Below, piece after piece: positions 599 to 45,659 of a stretch of DNA of 64,000 bases; the first letter of the stretch is position 1; every line of letters starts with the position of its first letter. Source of the stretch: Malacoraja senta (taxonomy: Eukaryota); NCBI GenBank assembly GCA_038087875.1, contig CM075988.1, forward strand, positions 23,686,001-23,750,000, in the 5' to 3' direction. The translations under genes and the position numbers were made by a program. Under the pieces are notes generated by a model. The model ran no database searches, had not been told where the DNA came from, and saw only the letters and a program-made list of their open reading frames with translations.

Positions 599-1519
599 AA
601 TTGACGAATGTTGCAAATGAAAGAGCCCAAGTTAGTTCAGCAACACTGAAAGAATACGGCAGGAAATCAAAGTACAAAGTTCCAAATAACAGGGGGAGGA
701 GACAACATCCCTGTCAAAGTTCAAGGTAACATTAAAATGAAACATTCCAATGAATGGCATTAAACCTATCATTTAATTTTCCTGCAAAATCCTCTTTCCA
801 TGTGTGCCGAAATCTCAAAACTTTTGAGAACTACCCCAAGTTGCAGCAATGCTCCCAAGTACCATGAGGTTTACATTTAGGCTGTCCTCCCAGCCTCTAT
901 ATCCCTGGCAGCAAGAAGATGAGCATTATTACACTTCATTTTGTCTCACAATATCAAGATCCAGGCAGCTGTGCTGAAGAATACACATGCGGGTTGAGTT
1001 TCAGTATACTCCTGTAGCAAAATAATGCAATCTCGATTATTCAAATCTGTCCCATGGCTAACAAAAATAAATTCATTCAAAAAACAGGCAAACAGGATAA
1101 AATGTGTATTTAATATTAAAAAGGTTGGTTTCAAATTATAAACTGCTTCATTTACACTATTTTGACAAATCCATTGGCAGAATCCAATCAAAGTTGTCAG
1201 AAGTGTTGTGGTTAATAGCATTGAGCAAGTACTCTGAAACCAGAGTTTATTTGCTGAAACGGATGTTATTTGCTGTTCCCAACAAAGTCAAGGCCATTCT
1301 GTTTGCATTGCATTTTCATGGTTCTGAAGATTCAAAAGACCTGTGACTTGAATGTCCAGCAGACGGGTGGGCACAGAATATGCAAACACCAATACTTGAA
1401 ATTTACACTTTACTCCCTTTAGCAGATGTTCTACAATAAATTATGCACAAACTAAAAAGTTTGTATGCCCTATTGCAAGGGGAGATCTTAATAACGATGC
1501 CTCTCATGAAAGGCACTCG

Positions 1520-10884: not shown

Positions 10885-11015
10885 GGGGTGGAAGATTGCA
10901 ACCTTCACGTGGTCCGCCCTGTTTCGACTAATGCAATCAACTCGACGTGCACAAACGGAAGATCAAATAGAACAAGTTGTCTTTAGGCTGTGCACACCAC
11001 ACAAAAGAAAAAGAA
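10885..11015 (+). mobile_element. Ribozyme-headed short retroposon, copy 1 (intact HDV-like fold at 10885-10938)
   Basis: TSD gtctatataaag at 10873-10884 and 11016-11027; A/GAA tail; homologous to three other copies. Confidence 0.85.
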
Positions 11016-11594
11016 GTCTATATAAAGGAATCCCTATTAAAATTCTTCCATTTTAAGCCAAACTTAACAAGTCCCACCAAACAAACTCTAGTCCCAATCA
11101 CGATGAGAAATCTTGTTGTGAGTATTTTATAGGAAAATAAAAGCTTGTAATGTTAAACATTGATGGTCAAATTATTTTCCAAACGTGATCTCCACAGGTT
11201 CAAGGCATTTCAAGCACTGGAAAACAACAGACATTTGTGGAACATTGCCTCCCAGGAGCAAATGGGGGAAAACTTTGGGGGTGGAGGAGAGATGAGAGAA
11301 ATAGTAGAAAACCAAGATACTTGGATCCCTTAATTTTGTATTTAACTGGATTGGTTCCAGATCCTCAATCATATCTCCATCTGCTATTAAATGGGAAAGA
11401 AAATATGAAATGAATTTTCCCACCCCATGCCCTTCTAAAATGATTCAACACATTATAGCAAATCACAAATGTATATTGATCTCAACGGGCATTGCAGGAA
11501 ATGAAAAAACAACAACTTTGCATCAAAATCCATCTAACAGCTTTCATCAGTTCATATGAGCAAACATCTTCAATTTGTGTTCTTTTTAACTCAC

Positions 11595-17454: not shown

Positions 17455-17905
17455 ATGGTGTTTGGCCCATATCCTCCTAGACCTTTCTTATCCATGTAAC
17501 TGTCCAAATGTATTTTAAATGCTGTGATAATACCAGCCTCAACTACTTCCTCTGGCAGTTTGTTCCATATACCCACCACCCTTTGTGTGAATAAGCTGCC
17601 CCTGGGGTGGAAGATTGCAACCTTCTTCGCCATGTTTCGACGAATGCAATCAACCCGGCGTGCACAATAAAATAAGATCAAATAGAACAAGTTGTCCTAC
17701 AACTTTAGGCTGTGCAGGCCATACGCAAGAAGAAGCAGAAGCTGCCCCTCAGGTTCCTATTAAATCTTTCCCCTCTCACCTTAAACCTATAGTTCTTGAT
17801 TCCCCTACTCTGGGTAAAAAGCTGTCCATTCACCCTATCTATTCCCCTCGTGGCTGTACAAACCTCCAAGATTATCCCTACACTCCTCCTACACTCCAAG
17901 GATTA
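17455..17905 (-). mobile_element. CR1 LINE fragment, host of retroposon copy 2
   Basis: FTQRVVGIWNKLPEEVVEAG...FKIHLD on minus. Confidence 0.8.
17604..17738 (+). mobile_element. Ribozyme-headed short retroposon, copy 2 (core partly deleted), inserted in a CR1 fragment
   Basis: TSD aagctgcccct at 17593-17603 and 17739-17749; (AAG)n tail. Confidence 0.85.
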
Positions 17906-40346: not shown

Positions 40347-40695
40347 TGGGACGACAGATGGCGCAATGGGCTAAGTGTTCGGCTGGCAACCGGAAGGTAG
40401 CCGGTTCGAATCCCGCTTGGAGTGCATACTGTCGTTGTGTCCTTGGGCAAGACACTTCACCCACCTTTGCCTGCGTGTGAATGTGCGTGAATGTGTGTGA
40501 GTGATTGGTGGTGGTCGGAGGGGCCGTAGGCGCAAATTAGCAGCCACGCTTCCGTCAGTCTGCCCCAGGGCAGCTGTGGCCACAGAAGTAGCTCACCACC
40601 ACCGAGTGTGACTGAGGAGTGAATGAATAATGCGATGTAAAGCGCCTTGAGTATTAAAAAGGCGCTATATAAATCCCATCCATTATTATTATTAT
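40347..40695 (+). mobile_element. Young tRNA-derived SINE with L2-type tail (teleost AFC-like)
   Basis: A box TGGCGCAATGG, B box GGTTCGAATCC, core GTGTCCTTGGGCAAGACACTT, tail GTAAAGCGCC..GCGCTATATAAAT(ATT)n; TSD tagatctg. Confidence 0.85.
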
Positions 40696-42179: not shown

Positions 42180-42320
42180 TTCTTCTTCTTCTTTCGTGTG
42201 GCGTGCACAGCCTAAAGTTGTTGGACAACTTGTTCTATTTGATCTTCCGTTTGTGCACGTCGAGTTGATTGCATTAGTCGAAACAGGGCGGACCACGTGA
42301 AGGTTGCAATCTCCCACCCC
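42180..42320 (-). mobile_element. Ribozyme-headed short retroposon, copy 3 (intact HDV-like fold at 42267-42320)
   Basis: TSD agtgagcactc at 42169-42179 and 42322-42332; (TTC)n tail on the plus strand. Confidence 0.85.
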
Positions 42321-45023
42321 AAGTGAGCACTCCAATCCACACAGTTTGTGTGTTCGGCATAAGTACAGGGTTTTGAGGGTTTCTGACTCTGTCTCATCCT
42401 TAACTAATCAGCATTAGAAGCCGAGATTATAGCAGCTAACACAGACTCTTGTTACTTTCCTTGCCGGCTAATTAGTTGAAAGTCCCATTTTTTAATCTGA
42501 TCTCCGTGTAGTTCTTCTTCGGTGCACTCAAGACATCAGGCGAAATGAGAAACTCGTTTGTGTGTGGCTGTAGGCTCTGAGATTAGTCAAGATAGAACGC
42601 AACTGTGTCATTATGCAAATCACTGCAGGGAAATGGATATTCGTGTATTGTTTCAAATTATCCAAAGATCATTTCAGTGGTGAAATCAATTAAACAGGAA
42701 CACCGGTGATTACTCAGCTCTCGCTGTGTCTGCCACAGTCTTACTGAAGATACGAATCAATTAATAATTGAAAAAAAAAATCTACATCTGGTCTTTCTAT
42801 CAACTTTTCCAGAATGATTAAAGAGAAAACTCTGCAGTCTATATATAACTGCAGTTTTTGATGTTGATTTTCAATGCCTTCGGGTCAACAATGTTTGAAC
42901 AATAAATGTTAGCTTATTCTTAATTGTCCATATTTTAAAACTAAATGAACATAGAGAATGACAGTTTCAAATCTACAGCGAGAAAGTCAAGATTCCAGGA
43001 ATCCTGTTTAGTCTAAAGCAGGTAAGTTGGAGGGAAATGAAAACAAATGATTAATTGTGTCAACCAAAGGCAACTACTGCAGAAGAAGGAATTTACAAGA
43101 TTACTAAGGCCCTCCTTAAAGTGTGATAATGCAGAAAATACTGCATTATCAGAGAAGAATGATTCTGCAACATTGAGTAGAATATTACACAAGTAACTAC
43201 CTGAGCCGCTCTTCATAGATCTCTGACCTTCTCAGTCAATGCCAGAGTTCAGGATCTGCTGACCTCATCTCAGCCTCCAAACATCACCTGCCCGAGCTAT
43301 CTCCTGTCCCCTTTTTGCCCTTCTGATTTCCTTCTTAAATCTGCTCCTCAGTTCCCAAAACTCACGCCAGGCTACGTTTGATCCCAGCATCCTATGCCTG
43401 TCCCATGCCTCCTCTTTTTCCTGAGCAGAGCCTCAATTTCTGTTGTCATGCATGCTTCCTAAAGAAGGTGACCCGAAACGCCACCCATTCCTTCTATCCA
43501 GAGATGCTGCCCGTCCCGCTGAGTTACTCCAACATTTTGTGTCTATCTTCCTTAATCCCTCCTGCGTTGCCATTATCTAGTGGCATATGTGCATGCTATT
43601 ATGTGCTTGGATGTGCAACTAAGTCCTGTCGGTGTTTAAATGTGTGCCGGTGTTTGTTATTAGAATACTTTGTGAATCCTCAGTGAAAATTAATGTTTAA
43701 TTGTTGTATTTCCTTATGTTATGTTGTGTTTTTAATTAAATCTCTGTCGCTGTTAAAGTTTCAGCTGATTAGTGTAATGAGAACACAGCAAAATGGAAGC
43801 ATCTCTTTAATGGCCCCATTTCATTTTCTCATCCCCTGACAGGGGGAAGAATTGTACGGTGAGGCGGAATTCAAAGAAAGGAAATCCTTTTATGTTTATT
43901 ATCTTTTTATATTTAAGAAATATAAAAGAAGATACCTAATTTCTGTCAACTGTGAAATAACTAATTGTGAATCCACAAGGGGGTGACAAAGAGAGTCTTT
44001 TGAACGGCGATGTTCCAGAAATTAAATCTCCTACAGACAGTAACATAATGAGTACACAGAGCTCATAATTCACTGCTAACCACACTCATATTGTTCACAA
44101 TATTATGGGAGATTTAAATCTAAATCATTGTTTACCATGCACACACTGATCTTGAAAAGCAAAAGAATGCATTTCATTCTGAAATAACTGTTTTTTCTCT
44201 CCAGCAATAATCTTCAGAATATTTCCAACAGTTTCAGTTTTTGTACAGCACACATTCTTATGTTTGTCGTCAGTCTTAAAATTACAAATCCTTTTAGGGT
44301 TCCTCTCCTTCCCATCCTTGTGACATTTGGCATCACAAGCGCACGGGATTTCTACATTCATTATGGACTATTGTGCATCCGGGATTTTCATGCCTCCACT
44401 ATTGGCAGTTGTGCCTTCAATACCTTGGAGCCCATTATGGAATTTCCTTTGTCGGTATCTCTTTCCTCTCTTATGATGCAGATAAAAATCCACATGCTGA
44501 AAAAATAGTTTGCACAATGGCACAAAGCAGTGGTGCACAGATAACAGTTGTGTTCGTGTGAAATAAGAGCTGTGTGAATGTGGAGTGTCGCAGTGCCAGT
44601 CACTGATATCGATTCTTGGTTTTGGGTGAGATTTTCCATGATTTCCCTTCTTCCAGCATCAAACTTGCCAACTCGTCAGTTTATGTCAAAATTCATGATT
44701 AGTGACAATTATTCAGATATTAATGTTGATGCGAAAAATAATGTTGATTATTCAATCGTTAAGTGAGCCAGTTATTGCTGTCGACAAAAGCACAAAAAAG
44801 TTACTTCATGGGTCTGTTGCACTGAACCAGTATTGATAACCAGACTGATTCTACATGCTGACAGGTCACTTTTAATTGCTCACACTGAAAATTGATTGTT
44901 CTTTGCATCCTCAAACATGTTGCTGCAGTCACTACGAACCCGTAATAGCCCGTCCTCTTCATGGATGTTAAAGAGACCTCTCGGGCACCATGTGCTCATA
45001 GGAATCACATCACAGGAGGCACA

Positions 45024-45077
45024 GGGGTGGGAGATTGCAACCTTCACGTGGTCCGCCCTGTTTCGACGAATGCAATC
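45024..45077 (+). ncRNA. Minimal HDV/CPEB3-like self-cleaving ribozyme (predicted)
   Basis: P1 GGGGUGG/CCGCCCU (G1-U wobble), P2 GAUUGCA/UGCAAUC, P3 ACC/GGU, L3 UUCACGU, J4/2 CGAA with the catalytic C at 45067. Confidence 0.8.
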
Positions 45078-45164
45078 AACCTGGCGTGCACAATCAAATA
45101 AGATCAAATAGAACAAGTTGTCCTACAACTTTAGGCTGTGCACGCCATACGCAAGAAGAAGAAG
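45024..45164 (+). mobile_element. Ribozyme-headed short retroposon, copy 4
   Basis: TSD acaggaggca(c/t)a at 45012-45023 and 45165-45176; (GAA)n tail. Confidence 0.85.
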
Positions 45165-45659
45165 ACAGGAGGCATACAAGAGAGAAGGCATCACCTTGCC
45201 TACCTGAGAATCAATGGGCGCCAAGCTCTTATCCACAGACTATGCACAAAGTATTACTCCACTGTGCCTTAAGAAATCTGGAGTAAAGCTTCATGCACAT
45301 GCCTGCATTGCTCTCACAGTTGAGCTCAAGCTAATCCATCCTTGCGTTGTTGATGGCTGCTGCATTAGACAGGTCTAATCAACACTTTATCCCACAAGTT
45401 GAGACATCTTCTACTTCGCCATCAGTCCGCAGGAGCAGGCAGGACACTAGGATTTTCTGACATTGCAGGTCTCCCAAAATTGCTTATTGACTGCCCCTCA
45501 TGTGGTCATTGCAACTCCCATTCTCAACAGACAAATGTTAGAGAAATGCATTCTGTCAATATGTATAACAGTAGAGCATCAGAGGATTGTTCTAATGGTT
45601 AATTCTAAGTATGTAGGCCAAGTTTTGGGAGCTAGTGAGTATCACCATCACAGTTAGTG

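What the first reader, a model, noticed from the sequence alone, without database searches (positions are those of the whole stretch)
45024..45164. SINE-like retroposon family headed by a minimal HDV/CPEB3-like self-cleaving ribozyme instead of a tRNA head
Seen: four copies of a ~140 bp element (10885, 17604, 42320 minus, 45024). Each has its own 11-12 bp TSD, a (GAA)n tail and the same 5' start GGGGTGG, and I see no canonical pol III A/B boxes. Nucleotides 1-54 map onto the HDV double pseudoknot. P1 is GGGGUGG/CCGCCCU with a G1-U wobble, P2 is GAUUGCA/UGCAAUC, P3 is ACC/GGU, L3 is UUCACGU, P4 is reduced to a UUCG loop, and J4/2 is C(G/U)AA. Established: the mammalian CPEB3 ribozyme has the same L3 and a CGAA J4/2; HDV ribozymes cut just 5' of G1; R2 and RTE retrotransposons use such ribozymes to make their 5' ends. 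Inference: the element is cut out of host read-through transcripts by self-cleavage and copied in trans by a LINE, probably RTE-type given the GAA tail and long TSDs. I do not know of this family being described in cartilaginous fish, but cannot exclude it.
Basis: partly seen in the sequence, partly recalled or inferred. Interest (0 to 1): 0.92.

Follow-up and report, generated by a model that had tools for sequence, protein, structure and literature searches.

The report
Ribozyme-headed SINE and its parent LINE
A short mobile element present in thousands of copies in this animal genome begins with what looks like a tiny self-cutting RNA of the hepatitis-delta type, inherited from its parent jumping gene, which would let it cut itself out of any host transcript; the principle is known from insects and trypanosomes, and cutting has not been shown here.

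Summary
The window holds four copies of a ~140-nt retroposon, each with 10-13 bp target-site duplications, a (GAA)n tail and a GGGGTGG start. The genome holds 8,201 matches to its 28-nt core against 0 for the control.

Nucleotides 1-54 meet a strict HDV-like double-pseudoknot descriptor. Shuffled sequence gave 0 hits in 1.92 Mb. The predicted cut site is exactly the element's 5' end. L3, J1/4 and J4/2 match the Rfam CPEB3 consensus, but the hit is weak: 18.6 bits against a threshold of 35.

New here is the parent element. It is a ~3.1-kb single-ORF LINE (AP endonuclease plus reverse transcriptase) with RTE-like architecture. It has the same 54-nt head at its 5' end and the same last ~45 nt and (GAA)n tail. 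The "SINE" is therefore an internally deleted LINE, like the R2 SIDEs of Drosophila.

No pol III boxes were found. The copies show no covariation because the family is too young. No RNA data could be used, and cleavage is untested. I call it a new member of a known kind, of moderate interest, with about 0.78 odds that the head is a working ribozyme.

The parts
45024..45164 (+). Full copy of the ~141-nt non-autonomous retroposon (subfamily A, J4/2 = CGAA)
   Evidence: flanked by 10-bp TSD ACAGGAGGCA
45012..45021 (+). Upstream target-site duplication (ACAGGAGGCA); 45022-45023 CA are extra bases at the 5' junction
   Evidence: the same 10-mer recurs at 45165-45174
45165..45174 (+). Downstream target-site duplication
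45024..45077 (+). Predicted minimal (P4-less) HDV/CPEB3-like ribozyme, cut predicted between 45023 and 45024
   Evidence: Strict descriptor hit. Rfam CPEB3 18.6 bits, E 0.0095 in a 191-nt search, full model, cut site aligned to 45023/45024
45024..45030 (+). P1 5' strand GGGGUGG (pairs with 45053-45059 CCGCCCU; G1-U36 wobble)
   Evidence: (the MFE of the 54-mer forms P1+P3)
45033..45039 (+). P2 5' strand GAUUGCA (pairs with 45071-45077 UGCAAUC)
   Evidence: (P2 forms in the MFE of the whole element)
45040..45052 (+). P3 (ACC/GGU) closing L3 UUCACGU; C22 of L3 can pair with G37 (45060) as a one-pair P1.1
45067..45070 (+). J4/2 CGAA; C45067 is the predicted catalytic cytosine
   Evidence: Aligned to GCGAAU of the CPEB3 consensus. 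C is kept in all 34 copies not chosen on this position (and window copies). The second position varies G/U/A
45078..45102 (+). Rest of the segment derived from the LINE 5' UTR (head positions 55-~79), including GGCGUGCACA
   Evidence: Alignment with LINE 5' end L096
45121..45164 (+). Segment shared with the LINE 3' end: last codons, stop codon TAG (in CTTTAGG), ~20-nt 3' UTR with UGUGCACGCC, and the (GAA)n tail at 45153-45164
10885..11016 (+). Copy of subfamily B (J4/2 = CTAA), with a 7-nt deletion in the body; 13-bp TSD GTCTATATAAAGG whose last G overlaps G1
17604..17738 (+). Copy of subfamily A with a 6-nt deletion in L3/P3 (fold destroyed); TSD AAGCTGCCCCT
42180..42320 (-). Copy of subfamily B on the minus strand; TSD GAGTGCTCACT; one extra T at 42321

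Best explanation
The element is a short internally deleted derivative of an RTE-like LINE of this genome. It keeps the LINE's first ~80 nt and its last ~45 nt plus the (GAA)n tail.

The first 54 nt of both LINE and derivative form a minimal, P4-less HDV/CPEB3-type self-cleaving ribozyme.

Proposed cycle:
1. A copy lying in any transcribed region is read through by the host polymerase (inferred).
2. The ribozyme cuts just 5' of G1 and sets the RNA's 5' end, with no promoter of its own needed (inferred from the fold and from R2, RTE and L1Tc precedents).
3. The LINE's reverse transcriptase recognises the shared 3' end and copies the RNA into a new site by target-primed reverse transcription. This leaves 8-15 bp target-site duplications and a copy that again starts at G1 (the products are observed, the steps inferred).

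Because the head travels with every copy, each intact copy in a transcribed place can be a new source.
For: Fold:
- P1 7/7, P2 7/7 and P3 3/3 pairs, a G1-U wobble and a C-N-A-A J4/2, found by a strict descriptor in 3 of the 4 window copies.
- The same descriptor gave 0 hits in 15 dinucleotide shuffles (1.92 Mb, both strands).
- The CPEB3 model is the best Rfam match. It aligns end to end, puts the cut at 45023/45024, and has identical L3, J1/4 GU and CGAAU.

Position:
- The predicted cut site coincides with the 5' end defined independently by TSDs.
- 16 of 44 TSD-bearing copies start exactly at G1 and 15 more within G2-G4.
- Contigs of four public runs break at 45024 into unrelated flanks.

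Parent LINE:
- The same head sits at the very 5' end of LINE copies, followed by a 52-nt leader and the ATG of an endonuclease-RT ORF.
- LINE and SINE have the same 3' end.
- Chimeric copies join the head to LINE interiors.

Change among active lineages:
- LINE, SINE-A and SINE-B heads differ at position 8 (J1/2), position 32 (U5-A in 7 of 7 LINE or chimera rows, U5-G in 53 of 61 SINE rows) and position 45 (the N of C-N-A-A). All three changes keep the fold.
- The next 25 nt of the leader differ at more places.

Against a pol III head:
- No A or B box within 2 mismatches.
- The LINE leader has a TTTT run about 40 nt after the head.

Precedent:
- HDV-like ribozymes process R2, RTE, Baggins and L1Tc RNAs (passages).
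- R2 SIDEs are exactly a 5' ribozyme plus a 3' end (abstract).
- P4-less minimal HDV-like ribozymes exist (passage).
- RTE elements have very short SSR-type 3' UTRs, including (GAA)n (passages).
Against: - No cleavage assay and no usable RNA data.
- No Rfam family reaches its gathering score in the window. CPEB3 scores 18.6 bits against 35, and scaled to the whole window its E-value would be about 3.
- Three LINE 5' copies, which carry C>T changes in L3 or P1, gave no ribozyme hit at E up to 10.
- No covariation: 0 of 18 pairs have changes on both sides in 68 rows, and the observed scores are not above the shuffles.
- Nested folding energies are not better than shuffles: z = +0.92 for the 54-mer and -1.49 for the whole element.
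- P4 is absent, and P1.1 can be only one C-G pair next to a U-U, so activity could be slow or need high Mg2+.
- L3/P3 contains CACGTG, an E-box. A promoter role for the head cannot be excluded.
- No intact LINE ORF was seen: the longest open frame is 681 aa among the copies scored.
Confidence: 0.78

Rival explanations
1. The head is (also or only) an internal RNA polymerase II promoter of the LINE, as Pr77 is in L1Tc. The uniform GGGGTGG start would then be a transcription start site, and the HDV-like fold would be inactive or incidental.
For: Uniform 5' ends fit a fixed start site as well as a cut site. The head holds a CACGTG palindrome at +22 to +27. In L1Tc the same 77 nt are both promoter and ribozyme (abstract). 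No covariation or cleavage data support the fold.
Against: A 17-pair double pseudoknot with the CPEB3 core, starting at exactly nucleotide 1, is not expected by chance (0 hits in 1.92 Mb of shuffles). A promoter role would not explain why the three differences between lineages all keep the fold. The two roles can also coexist.
Confidence: 0.1
2. The head is a ribozyme relic. It worked in the ancestral LINE, but the P4-less form in today's copies no longer cleaves at a useful rate, and the short element spread by some other route to a defined 5' end.
For: P4 is reduced to nothing and P1.1 to one pair (alignment). The Rfam score is far below threshold. The LINE copies seen are all broken.
Against: SINE copies are young: 96-99% identical to the window copy for subfamily A. 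They still start at G1. 25 of 57 sampled genomic SINE copies outside the window keep all 17 pairs plus G1, C44 and A46-A47. Minimal P4-less forms are known.
Confidence: 0.08
3. It is an ordinary pol III SINE (tRNA-, 5S- or 7SL-derived head) whose head happens to resemble the fold.
For: With 3 mismatches each, an A-box-like word at +5 and a B-box-like word at +37 can be found. There is no TTTT inside the 141 nt.
Against: No A or B box within 2 mismatches. ARAGORN finds no tRNA in any copy. The head is the 5' UTR of a 3.1-kb protein-coding LINE whose leader has a TTTT run, so it did not arise as a pol III gene.
Confidence: 0.02

Closest known systems
R2 SIDEs (Short Internally Deleted Elements) of Drosophila (Eickbush & Eickbush 2012, PMC3414825; abstract read)
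   Same: A non-autonomous element made of the parent LINE's 5' HDV-like ribozyme joined to the parent's 3' end, and spread by the parent's target-primed reverse transcription. Template jumps to other RNAs are seen at 5' junctions.
   Different: R2 is site-specific (28S rDNA), uses a restriction-like endonuclease and has a large ribozyme (about 184 nt per the review passage). SIDEs are rare. Here the parent is an AP-endonuclease LINE that inserts genome-wide, the ribozyme is 54 nt without P4, and the derivative has at least 8,201 copies.
HDV-like ribozymes at the 5' ends of RTE and Baggins LINEs (Ruminski et al. 2011; known to me only through review passages; the paper itself is not held)
   Same: A promoter-less APE-type LINE is transcribed as part of host transcripts and released by a 5' HDV-like ribozyme. 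The parent here has RTE-like architecture, down to a (GAA)n-type 3' UTR.
   Different: Those examples are, as far as I could read, from insects and other invertebrates. I could not check whether a vertebrate or a P4-less case is described there. RTE clade membership of this LINE was not tested by phylogeny.
Mammalian CPEB3 ribozyme (Rfam RF00622)
   Same: Best Rfam match, full-length alignment. Identical L3 UUCACGU, P1 3' end CCCU, J1/4 GU and J4/2 CGAAU, and a G at the cut site.
   Different: 18.6 bits against a gathering score of 35. P2 is unrelated in sequence and P4 (16 nt in the model) is missing. CPEB3 is a single-copy intronic ribozyme, not part of a mobile element.
L1Tc / NARTc / SIDER of trypanosomatids (Pr77 with the L1TcRz ribozyme; abstracts)
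   Same: An autonomous LINE and its abundant truncated non-autonomous relatives share a 5' HDV-like ribozyme that frees them from co-transcripts.
   Different: A different LINE clade and host. There the 77 nt are also a proven promoter; here a promoter role is untested.
Minimal (P4-less) HDV-like ribozymes from metagenomes and phage theta ribozymes (PMC10879173; passage)
   Same: About 50-nt double pseudoknots lacking the P4 domain.
   Different: Those come from metagenomes and phages (next to tRNAs). This one heads a retrotransposon in an animal genome.

Membership tests
HDV-like (drz) self-cleaving ribozyme | Nested double-pseudoknot order: P1 5' - J1/2 - P2 5' - P3 - L3 - P3' - P1 3' - J1/4 - (P4) - J4/2 - P2 3' | tested here: met
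   Strict descriptor (P1 7 bp, P2 7 bp, P3 3 bp) hits 3 of 4 window copies and gives 0 hits in 1.92 Mb of shuffles. 93.6% of cells are paired against 21-42% when partners are slid, although the structure was derived from these sequences. P4 is absent, as in the minimal forms.
HDV-like (drz) self-cleaving ribozyme | Cut site directly 5' of the first P1 nucleotide (G1, closing G-U wobble), with no upstream sequence requirement | tested here: met
   Met at the sequence level only. G1-U36 is present, and the retroposon's own 5' end as defined by TSDs is G1. That the wobble is typical of the family is recalled, not from a call. Actual cleavage was not tested.
HDV-like (drz) self-cleaving ribozyme | Catalytic cytosine in J4/2 followed by N-A-A | tested here: met
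   C44-N-A-A aligns with GCGAAU of CPEB3. C44 is kept in all 34 copies not chosen on that position (window copies). N varies G/U/A.
HDV-like (drz) self-cleaving ribozyme | Match to a curated Rfam HDV-type model at or above its gathering score | tested here: not met
   0 hits at gathering in the window. CPEB3 scores 18.6 against 35 bits and HDV-F-prausnitzii 14.4 against 44. No hit for three LINE 5' copies.
HDV-like (drz) self-cleaving ribozyme | Covariation supporting P1, P2 and P3 | tested here: inconclusive
   0 of 18 pairs have changes on both sides in 68 rows, and only one-sided changes occur, such as U5-G32 to U5-A32. The copies are young and decay neutrally, so the test has no power.
HDV-like (drz) self-cleaving ribozyme | Mg2+-dependent self-cleavage giving 5'-OH and 2',3'-cyclic phosphate ends | not testable with these tools
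   No listed run is on record as RNA, and only contigs were available.
SIDE-type non-autonomous element (internally deleted LINE) | The 5' end is the same as the parent LINE's 5' end (ribozyme) | tested here: met
   SINE positions 1-~79 align with the LINE 5' end in L096, which runs on into the ORF start.
SIDE-type non-autonomous element (internally deleted LINE) | The 3' end is the same as the parent LINE's 3' end | tested here: met
   The last ~45 nt plus (GAA)n match the LINE, including its stop codon.
Classical pol III SINE | Internal A and B boxes, or a tRNA/7SL/5S-derived head | tested here: not met
   No A or B box within 2 mismatches (consensus recalled). ARAGORN finds no tRNA in the copies.
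RTE clade of non-LTR retrotransposons (the parent LINE) | [quoted passage not shown] | tested here: met
   Exo_endo_phos_2 E 1.9e-8 and RVT_1 E 3.6e-14. A 106-nt 5' UTR, an ORF pieced from three broken copies at about 990 aa, and a ~20-nt 3' UTR plus (GAA)n.
RTE clade of non-LTR retrotransposons (the parent LINE) | Phylogenetic placement of the RT domain within the RTE clade | not tested
   No reference RT sequences were at hand, and the protein atlas tool was unreachable.

The most novel reading that the evidence does not exclude
Thousands of copies of a working 54-nt, P4-less HDV-type ribozyme are scattered through a vertebrate genome. Each could cut any host transcript that runs through it in sense. 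Their catalytic core (L3, J1/4, J4/2) is letter for letter that of the mammalian CPEB3 ribozyme. On this reading the family is a living relative of the kind of RTE-type retrotransposon head from which the single-copy CPEB3 ribozyme was domesticated.
Probability: 0.12. Interest if true: 0.85.

Novelty: new member of a known kind. Interest (0 to 1): 0.5.

Why it matters
If the head cleaves, this is a clear vertebrate case of a LINE and its high-copy derivative that need no promoter of their own. Any copy landing in a transcribed region can free itself and move again. That would explain how a 141-nt element without pol III boxes reached at least 8,201 copies.

It would also place the minimal, P4-less form of the HDV fold, so far reported from metagenomes and phages, in an animal retrotransposon.

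It would put thousands of potential RNA-cutting sites into host introns and UTRs.

The core shared with the CPEB3 ribozyme gives a concrete, testable lead on where that mammalian ribozyme came from.

If the head does not cleave, the finding is an ordinary LINE/SINE pair.

Tried and rejected
- **Whole-genome DNA search with the 141-nt element** found nothing, because very common words are skipped. Pattern searches replaced it.
- **RNA evidence:** no RNA holder listed. All 24 runs are contigs, 18 of them only guessed to be RNA. Laying four of them shows presence and boundaries only, with no starts or ends of molecules.
- **A LINE with the same head directly followed by non-SINE sequence:** the search gave 94 hits, almost all SINE copies with small indels, and no recurring LINE continuation. 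The LINE was found through the tail instead.
- **First LINE copies fetched:**
  - L091+L039 is 5'-truncated.
  - L092 is 5'-truncated.
  - L093 is rearranged.
- **Ribozymes in other RTE-like LINE families of the genome, as a source of covariation:** eight 5' regions were fetched. A relaxed descriptor gave only AT-rich 5-bp-P2 hits that I regard as noise. Two families have other 5' ends.
- **Covariation on 68 aligned heads:** no signal. Rows left out before the count:
  - L016: the anchor was not found.
  - L081 and L082: the 5' half is replaced by unrelated sequence.
  - L094: has a 50-nt insertion.
  - L095: lacks the head.
  - L101: identical to L100.
- **Nested folding z-scores:** uninformative for a pseudoknot.
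- **Rfam on LINE 5' copies:** no ribozyme hit.
- **Protein atlas for clade and taxa of the LINE:** tool unreachable three times.
- **Papers:** Ruminski 2011 and Webb 2009 are not held.
- **Earlier findings of this scan:** nothing on this genome or sequence. One unrelated rejected case in another genome had no bearing.

Full report
**1. The observation**

They lie at 45024-45164 (+), 10885-~11016 (+), 17604-17738 (+) and 42320-42180 (-).

- Each is flanked by its own 10-13 bp direct repeat, ends in (GAA)n-like repeats and begins GGGGTGG.
- Two copies have 1-2 extra bases between the repeat and G1.
- The copy at 17604 has a 6-nt deletion that removes part of L3 and P3.
- A 28-mer of the head and a 21-mer of the body occur 3 and 4 times in the window, against 0 in 100 shuffles each.

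The window lies in a 1.94-Gb assembly.

- The 28-mer (up to 2 mismatches) matches 4,104 + 4,097 = 8,201 times there, and the reversed control matches 0 times.
- All 30 of 30 loci fetched around exact matches are complete copies with their own flanks.
- A sensitive blastn of the element against the window plus those loci found 34 hits, all nearly full length, and no fragments.
- Subfamily A copies are about 96-99% identical to the window copy.

**2. The 5' end**

I found 63 copies with an anchor in the window, L001-L030 and L061-L090. For 44 of them an exact repeat of at least 8 nt could be found on both sides; for 19 it could not with this strict method.

| Start of the 44 copies | Count | Note |
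|---|---|---|
| Exactly at G1 | 16 | Includes two whose offset is an artefact of an internal deletion |
| At G2-G4 | 15 | In most, the last bases of the repeat are G, so the start is ambiguous with G1 |
| 1-8 extra bases | 10 | |
| 4-7 bases missing | 3 | |

Repeat lengths are 8-15 bp, mostly 11-12.

Contigs of four public runs from four coded organisms cover only 45018-45170. They break at 45024 into flanks that do not agree with each other.

**3. The fold**

Positions 1-54 give:
- P1: GGGGUGG/CCGCCCU, with a G1-U36 wobble.
- P2: GAUUGCA/UGCAAUC.
- P3: ACC/GGU.
- L3: UUCACGU.
- A 7-nt linker in place of P4.
- J4/2: C-N-A-A.

A strict descriptor written for this topology finds the three intact window copies and one AT-rich single-copy hit at 1476-1412 (-). 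It finds nothing in 15 dinucleotide shuffles of the window, that is 1.92 Mb counting both strands.

Rfam results:
- No hit at gathering thresholds in the window.
- In a 191-nt search the best match is the CPEB3 ribozyme at 18.6 bits (threshold 35, E 0.0095). It aligns over the whole model, places the cut at 45023/45024, and has identical L3, J1/4 GU and CGAAU.
- HDV-F-prausnitzii scores 14.4 bits.
- Three LINE 5' copies with C>T changes gave no such hit.

RNAfold forms P1+P3 for the 54-mer and P2 for the whole element. The energies are not better than shuffles, as expected for a pseudoknot.

**4. The parent LINE (new in this stage)**

I searched for the element's tail preceded by something other than the SINE body. 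That gave 53 hits, of which about 18 share one other upstream sequence.

3' end:
- The upstream sequence is coding. The ORF ends ...DLQL-stop, and the stop codon is the TAG inside CTTTAGG.
- The 3' UTR is therefore about 20 nt plus (GAA)n.
- The last 560 nt have at least 508 candidate copies, of which 40 were scored at 91-100% identity.

Walking upstream through broken copies gave:
- The RT domain: RVT_1, E 3.6e-14 and 6.2e-9.
- An N-terminal AP endonuclease: Exo_endo_phos_2, E 1.9e-8.

5' end. Nine genomic matches to the ORF start were found. Their upstream sequences show the following:
- L096 starts, right after unrelated flank, with the full 54-nt head, then 52 nt of leader, then ATG.
- L102 starts at about G2-G3.
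- L097-L099 start at positions 8-11.
- L100 (identical to L101) starts at about position 12.
- L095 joins at about position 66.
- L094 has the head with a ~50-nt foreign insert between P1 and P2.

The SINE aligns with the LINE's first ~79 nt and last ~45 nt. About 15-20 nt in the middle are of unclear origin.

The LINE pieces add up to a ~990-aa ORF and a ~3.1-kb element. This is the RTE architecture as described in PMC2887409, which also reports a (GAA)n-type 14-bp 3' UTR in an insect RTE (passages). RT phylogeny was not done.

No intact ORF was seen. The longest open frame among same-family matches was 681 aa.

**5. Signs that LINE RNAs and head-bearing RNAs meet**

- L049 is a TSD-flanked copy made of head positions 1-~62 joined to the last ~450 nt of the LINE, at a short shared word.
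- L093 has an inverted SINE head and a partial forward head fused to the LINE interior.
- Several LINE 5' ends are preceded by an inverted piece of the LINE's own 3' coding region.

**6. What varies**

Across four runs, the only sites in the head with at least 10% other letters are position 32 (G>A) and position 45 (G>U or A). The body has four such sites.

| Head position | 61 SINE rows | 7 LINE or chimera rows |
|---|---|---|
| 8 | G41 / A20 | |
| 32 | G53 / A7 / C1 | A in all 7 |
| 45 | G32 / U18 / A10 / C1 | |

(Counts.)

All three positions tolerate the change in the proposed fold: J1/2, U5-G to U5-A, and the N of C-N-A-A. This fits constraint on the lineages that stayed active, but the numbers are small.

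No pair shows changes on both sides (0 of 18 pairs in 68 rows), and the observed scores do not exceed the shuffles. The covariation test is therefore uninformative.

Of the sampled SINE copies outside the window, 15 of 29 (chosen on positions 10-37) and 10 of 28 (chosen on positions 34-54) keep all 17 pairs plus G1, C44 and A46-A47.

**7. Rivals**

- **Pol III head.** Not supported. There is no A or B box within 2 mismatches and no tRNA-like head. The head belongs to a protein-coding LINE whose leader has a TTTT run.
- **Pol II internal promoter in the head.** Not excluded. It could coexist with a ribozyme, as in L1Tc (abstracts). The head contains CACGTG.
- **Inactive relic.** Possible, given the missing P4 and the minimal P1.1.

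**8. Comparison with what is known**

- R2 SIDEs are exactly a 5' ribozyme plus a 3' end (PMC3414825, abstract).
- Minimal P4-less HDV-like ribozymes are known from metagenomes and phages (PMC10879173, passage).

In the held library I found nothing that ties an HDV-like or self-cleaving ribozyme to a SINE or non-R2 LINE of cartilaginous fish:
- required only 3 of 6 terms, and none of its 20 listed rows held 'HDV-like' or 'ribozyme'.
- 'HDV-like' + 'shark' gave 2 papers, one a CPEB review and one on R2.
- 'self-cleaving' + 'ribozyme' + 'cartilaginous' gave 3 papers (2 listed), one on R2 and one unrelated.

The key primary paper (Ruminski 2011) and Webb 2009 are not held. Dfam and Repbase could not be searched, so prior description cannot be excluded.

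**9. Verdict**

The element is an internally deleted RTE-like LINE, and both carry a minimal CPEB3-like HDV-type head at the exact 5' end. The mechanism is the known one, so I rate it a new member of a known kind.

The points of interest are the vertebrate host, the P4-less form, the very high copy number and the CPEB3-identical core. Catalysis remains to be shown.

Noticed in passing
window 45082-45091 with 45137-45146; LINE 5' UTR in L096 and 3' UTR in L092:5107-5116: A 10-bp complementarity links the LINE's 5' leader (GACGTGCACA, just after the ribozyme) to its 3' UTR (TGTGCACGCC). In SINE subfamily A it is perfect (GGCGTGCACA), and it is the dominant helix in the predicted fold of the whole element. 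It could bring the two RNA ends together.
   Followed up: partly
L095, L100 (identical to L101), L102; L093:2080-2160; L049:1050-1560: Several LINE 5' ends are directly preceded by an inverted piece of the LINE's own 3' coding region. One copy has an inverted SINE head plus a partial forward head fused to the LINE interior. One TSD-flanked copy is the head joined to the last ~450 nt of the LINE. These look like template switches or inversions during reverse transcription.
   Followed up: partly
L094:625-680: One LINE copy carries a ~50-nt insert resembling a tRNA-derived SINE head between the P1 5' strand and P2 of the ribozyme (J1/2).
   Followed up: no
window 40351-40425 (+): ARAGORN calls a tRNA-Ala (anticodon GGC). 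It may be a gene or the head of a tRNA-derived SINE.
   Followed up: no
window 1412-1476 (-): The strict HDV descriptor also hits an AT-rich single-copy stretch (P1 GCAATAG). It has no repeat family around it and is probably chance.
   Followed up: partly
L103/L104 and L105/L108/L109 (other LINE families of the same genome): Two other RTE-like LINE families (about 33-48% protein identity to the parent LINE) have different, conserved 5' ends without an HDV-like motif. One starts GTGGTGCAGCC..., about 93 nt before its ATG.
   Followed up: partly
runs X1-X24: The 141-nt element is held near-identically (share of words 0.67-1.00) in 24 public runs labelled with 9 coded organisms from 11 studies, so the family is probably shared by several species.
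   Followed up: partly
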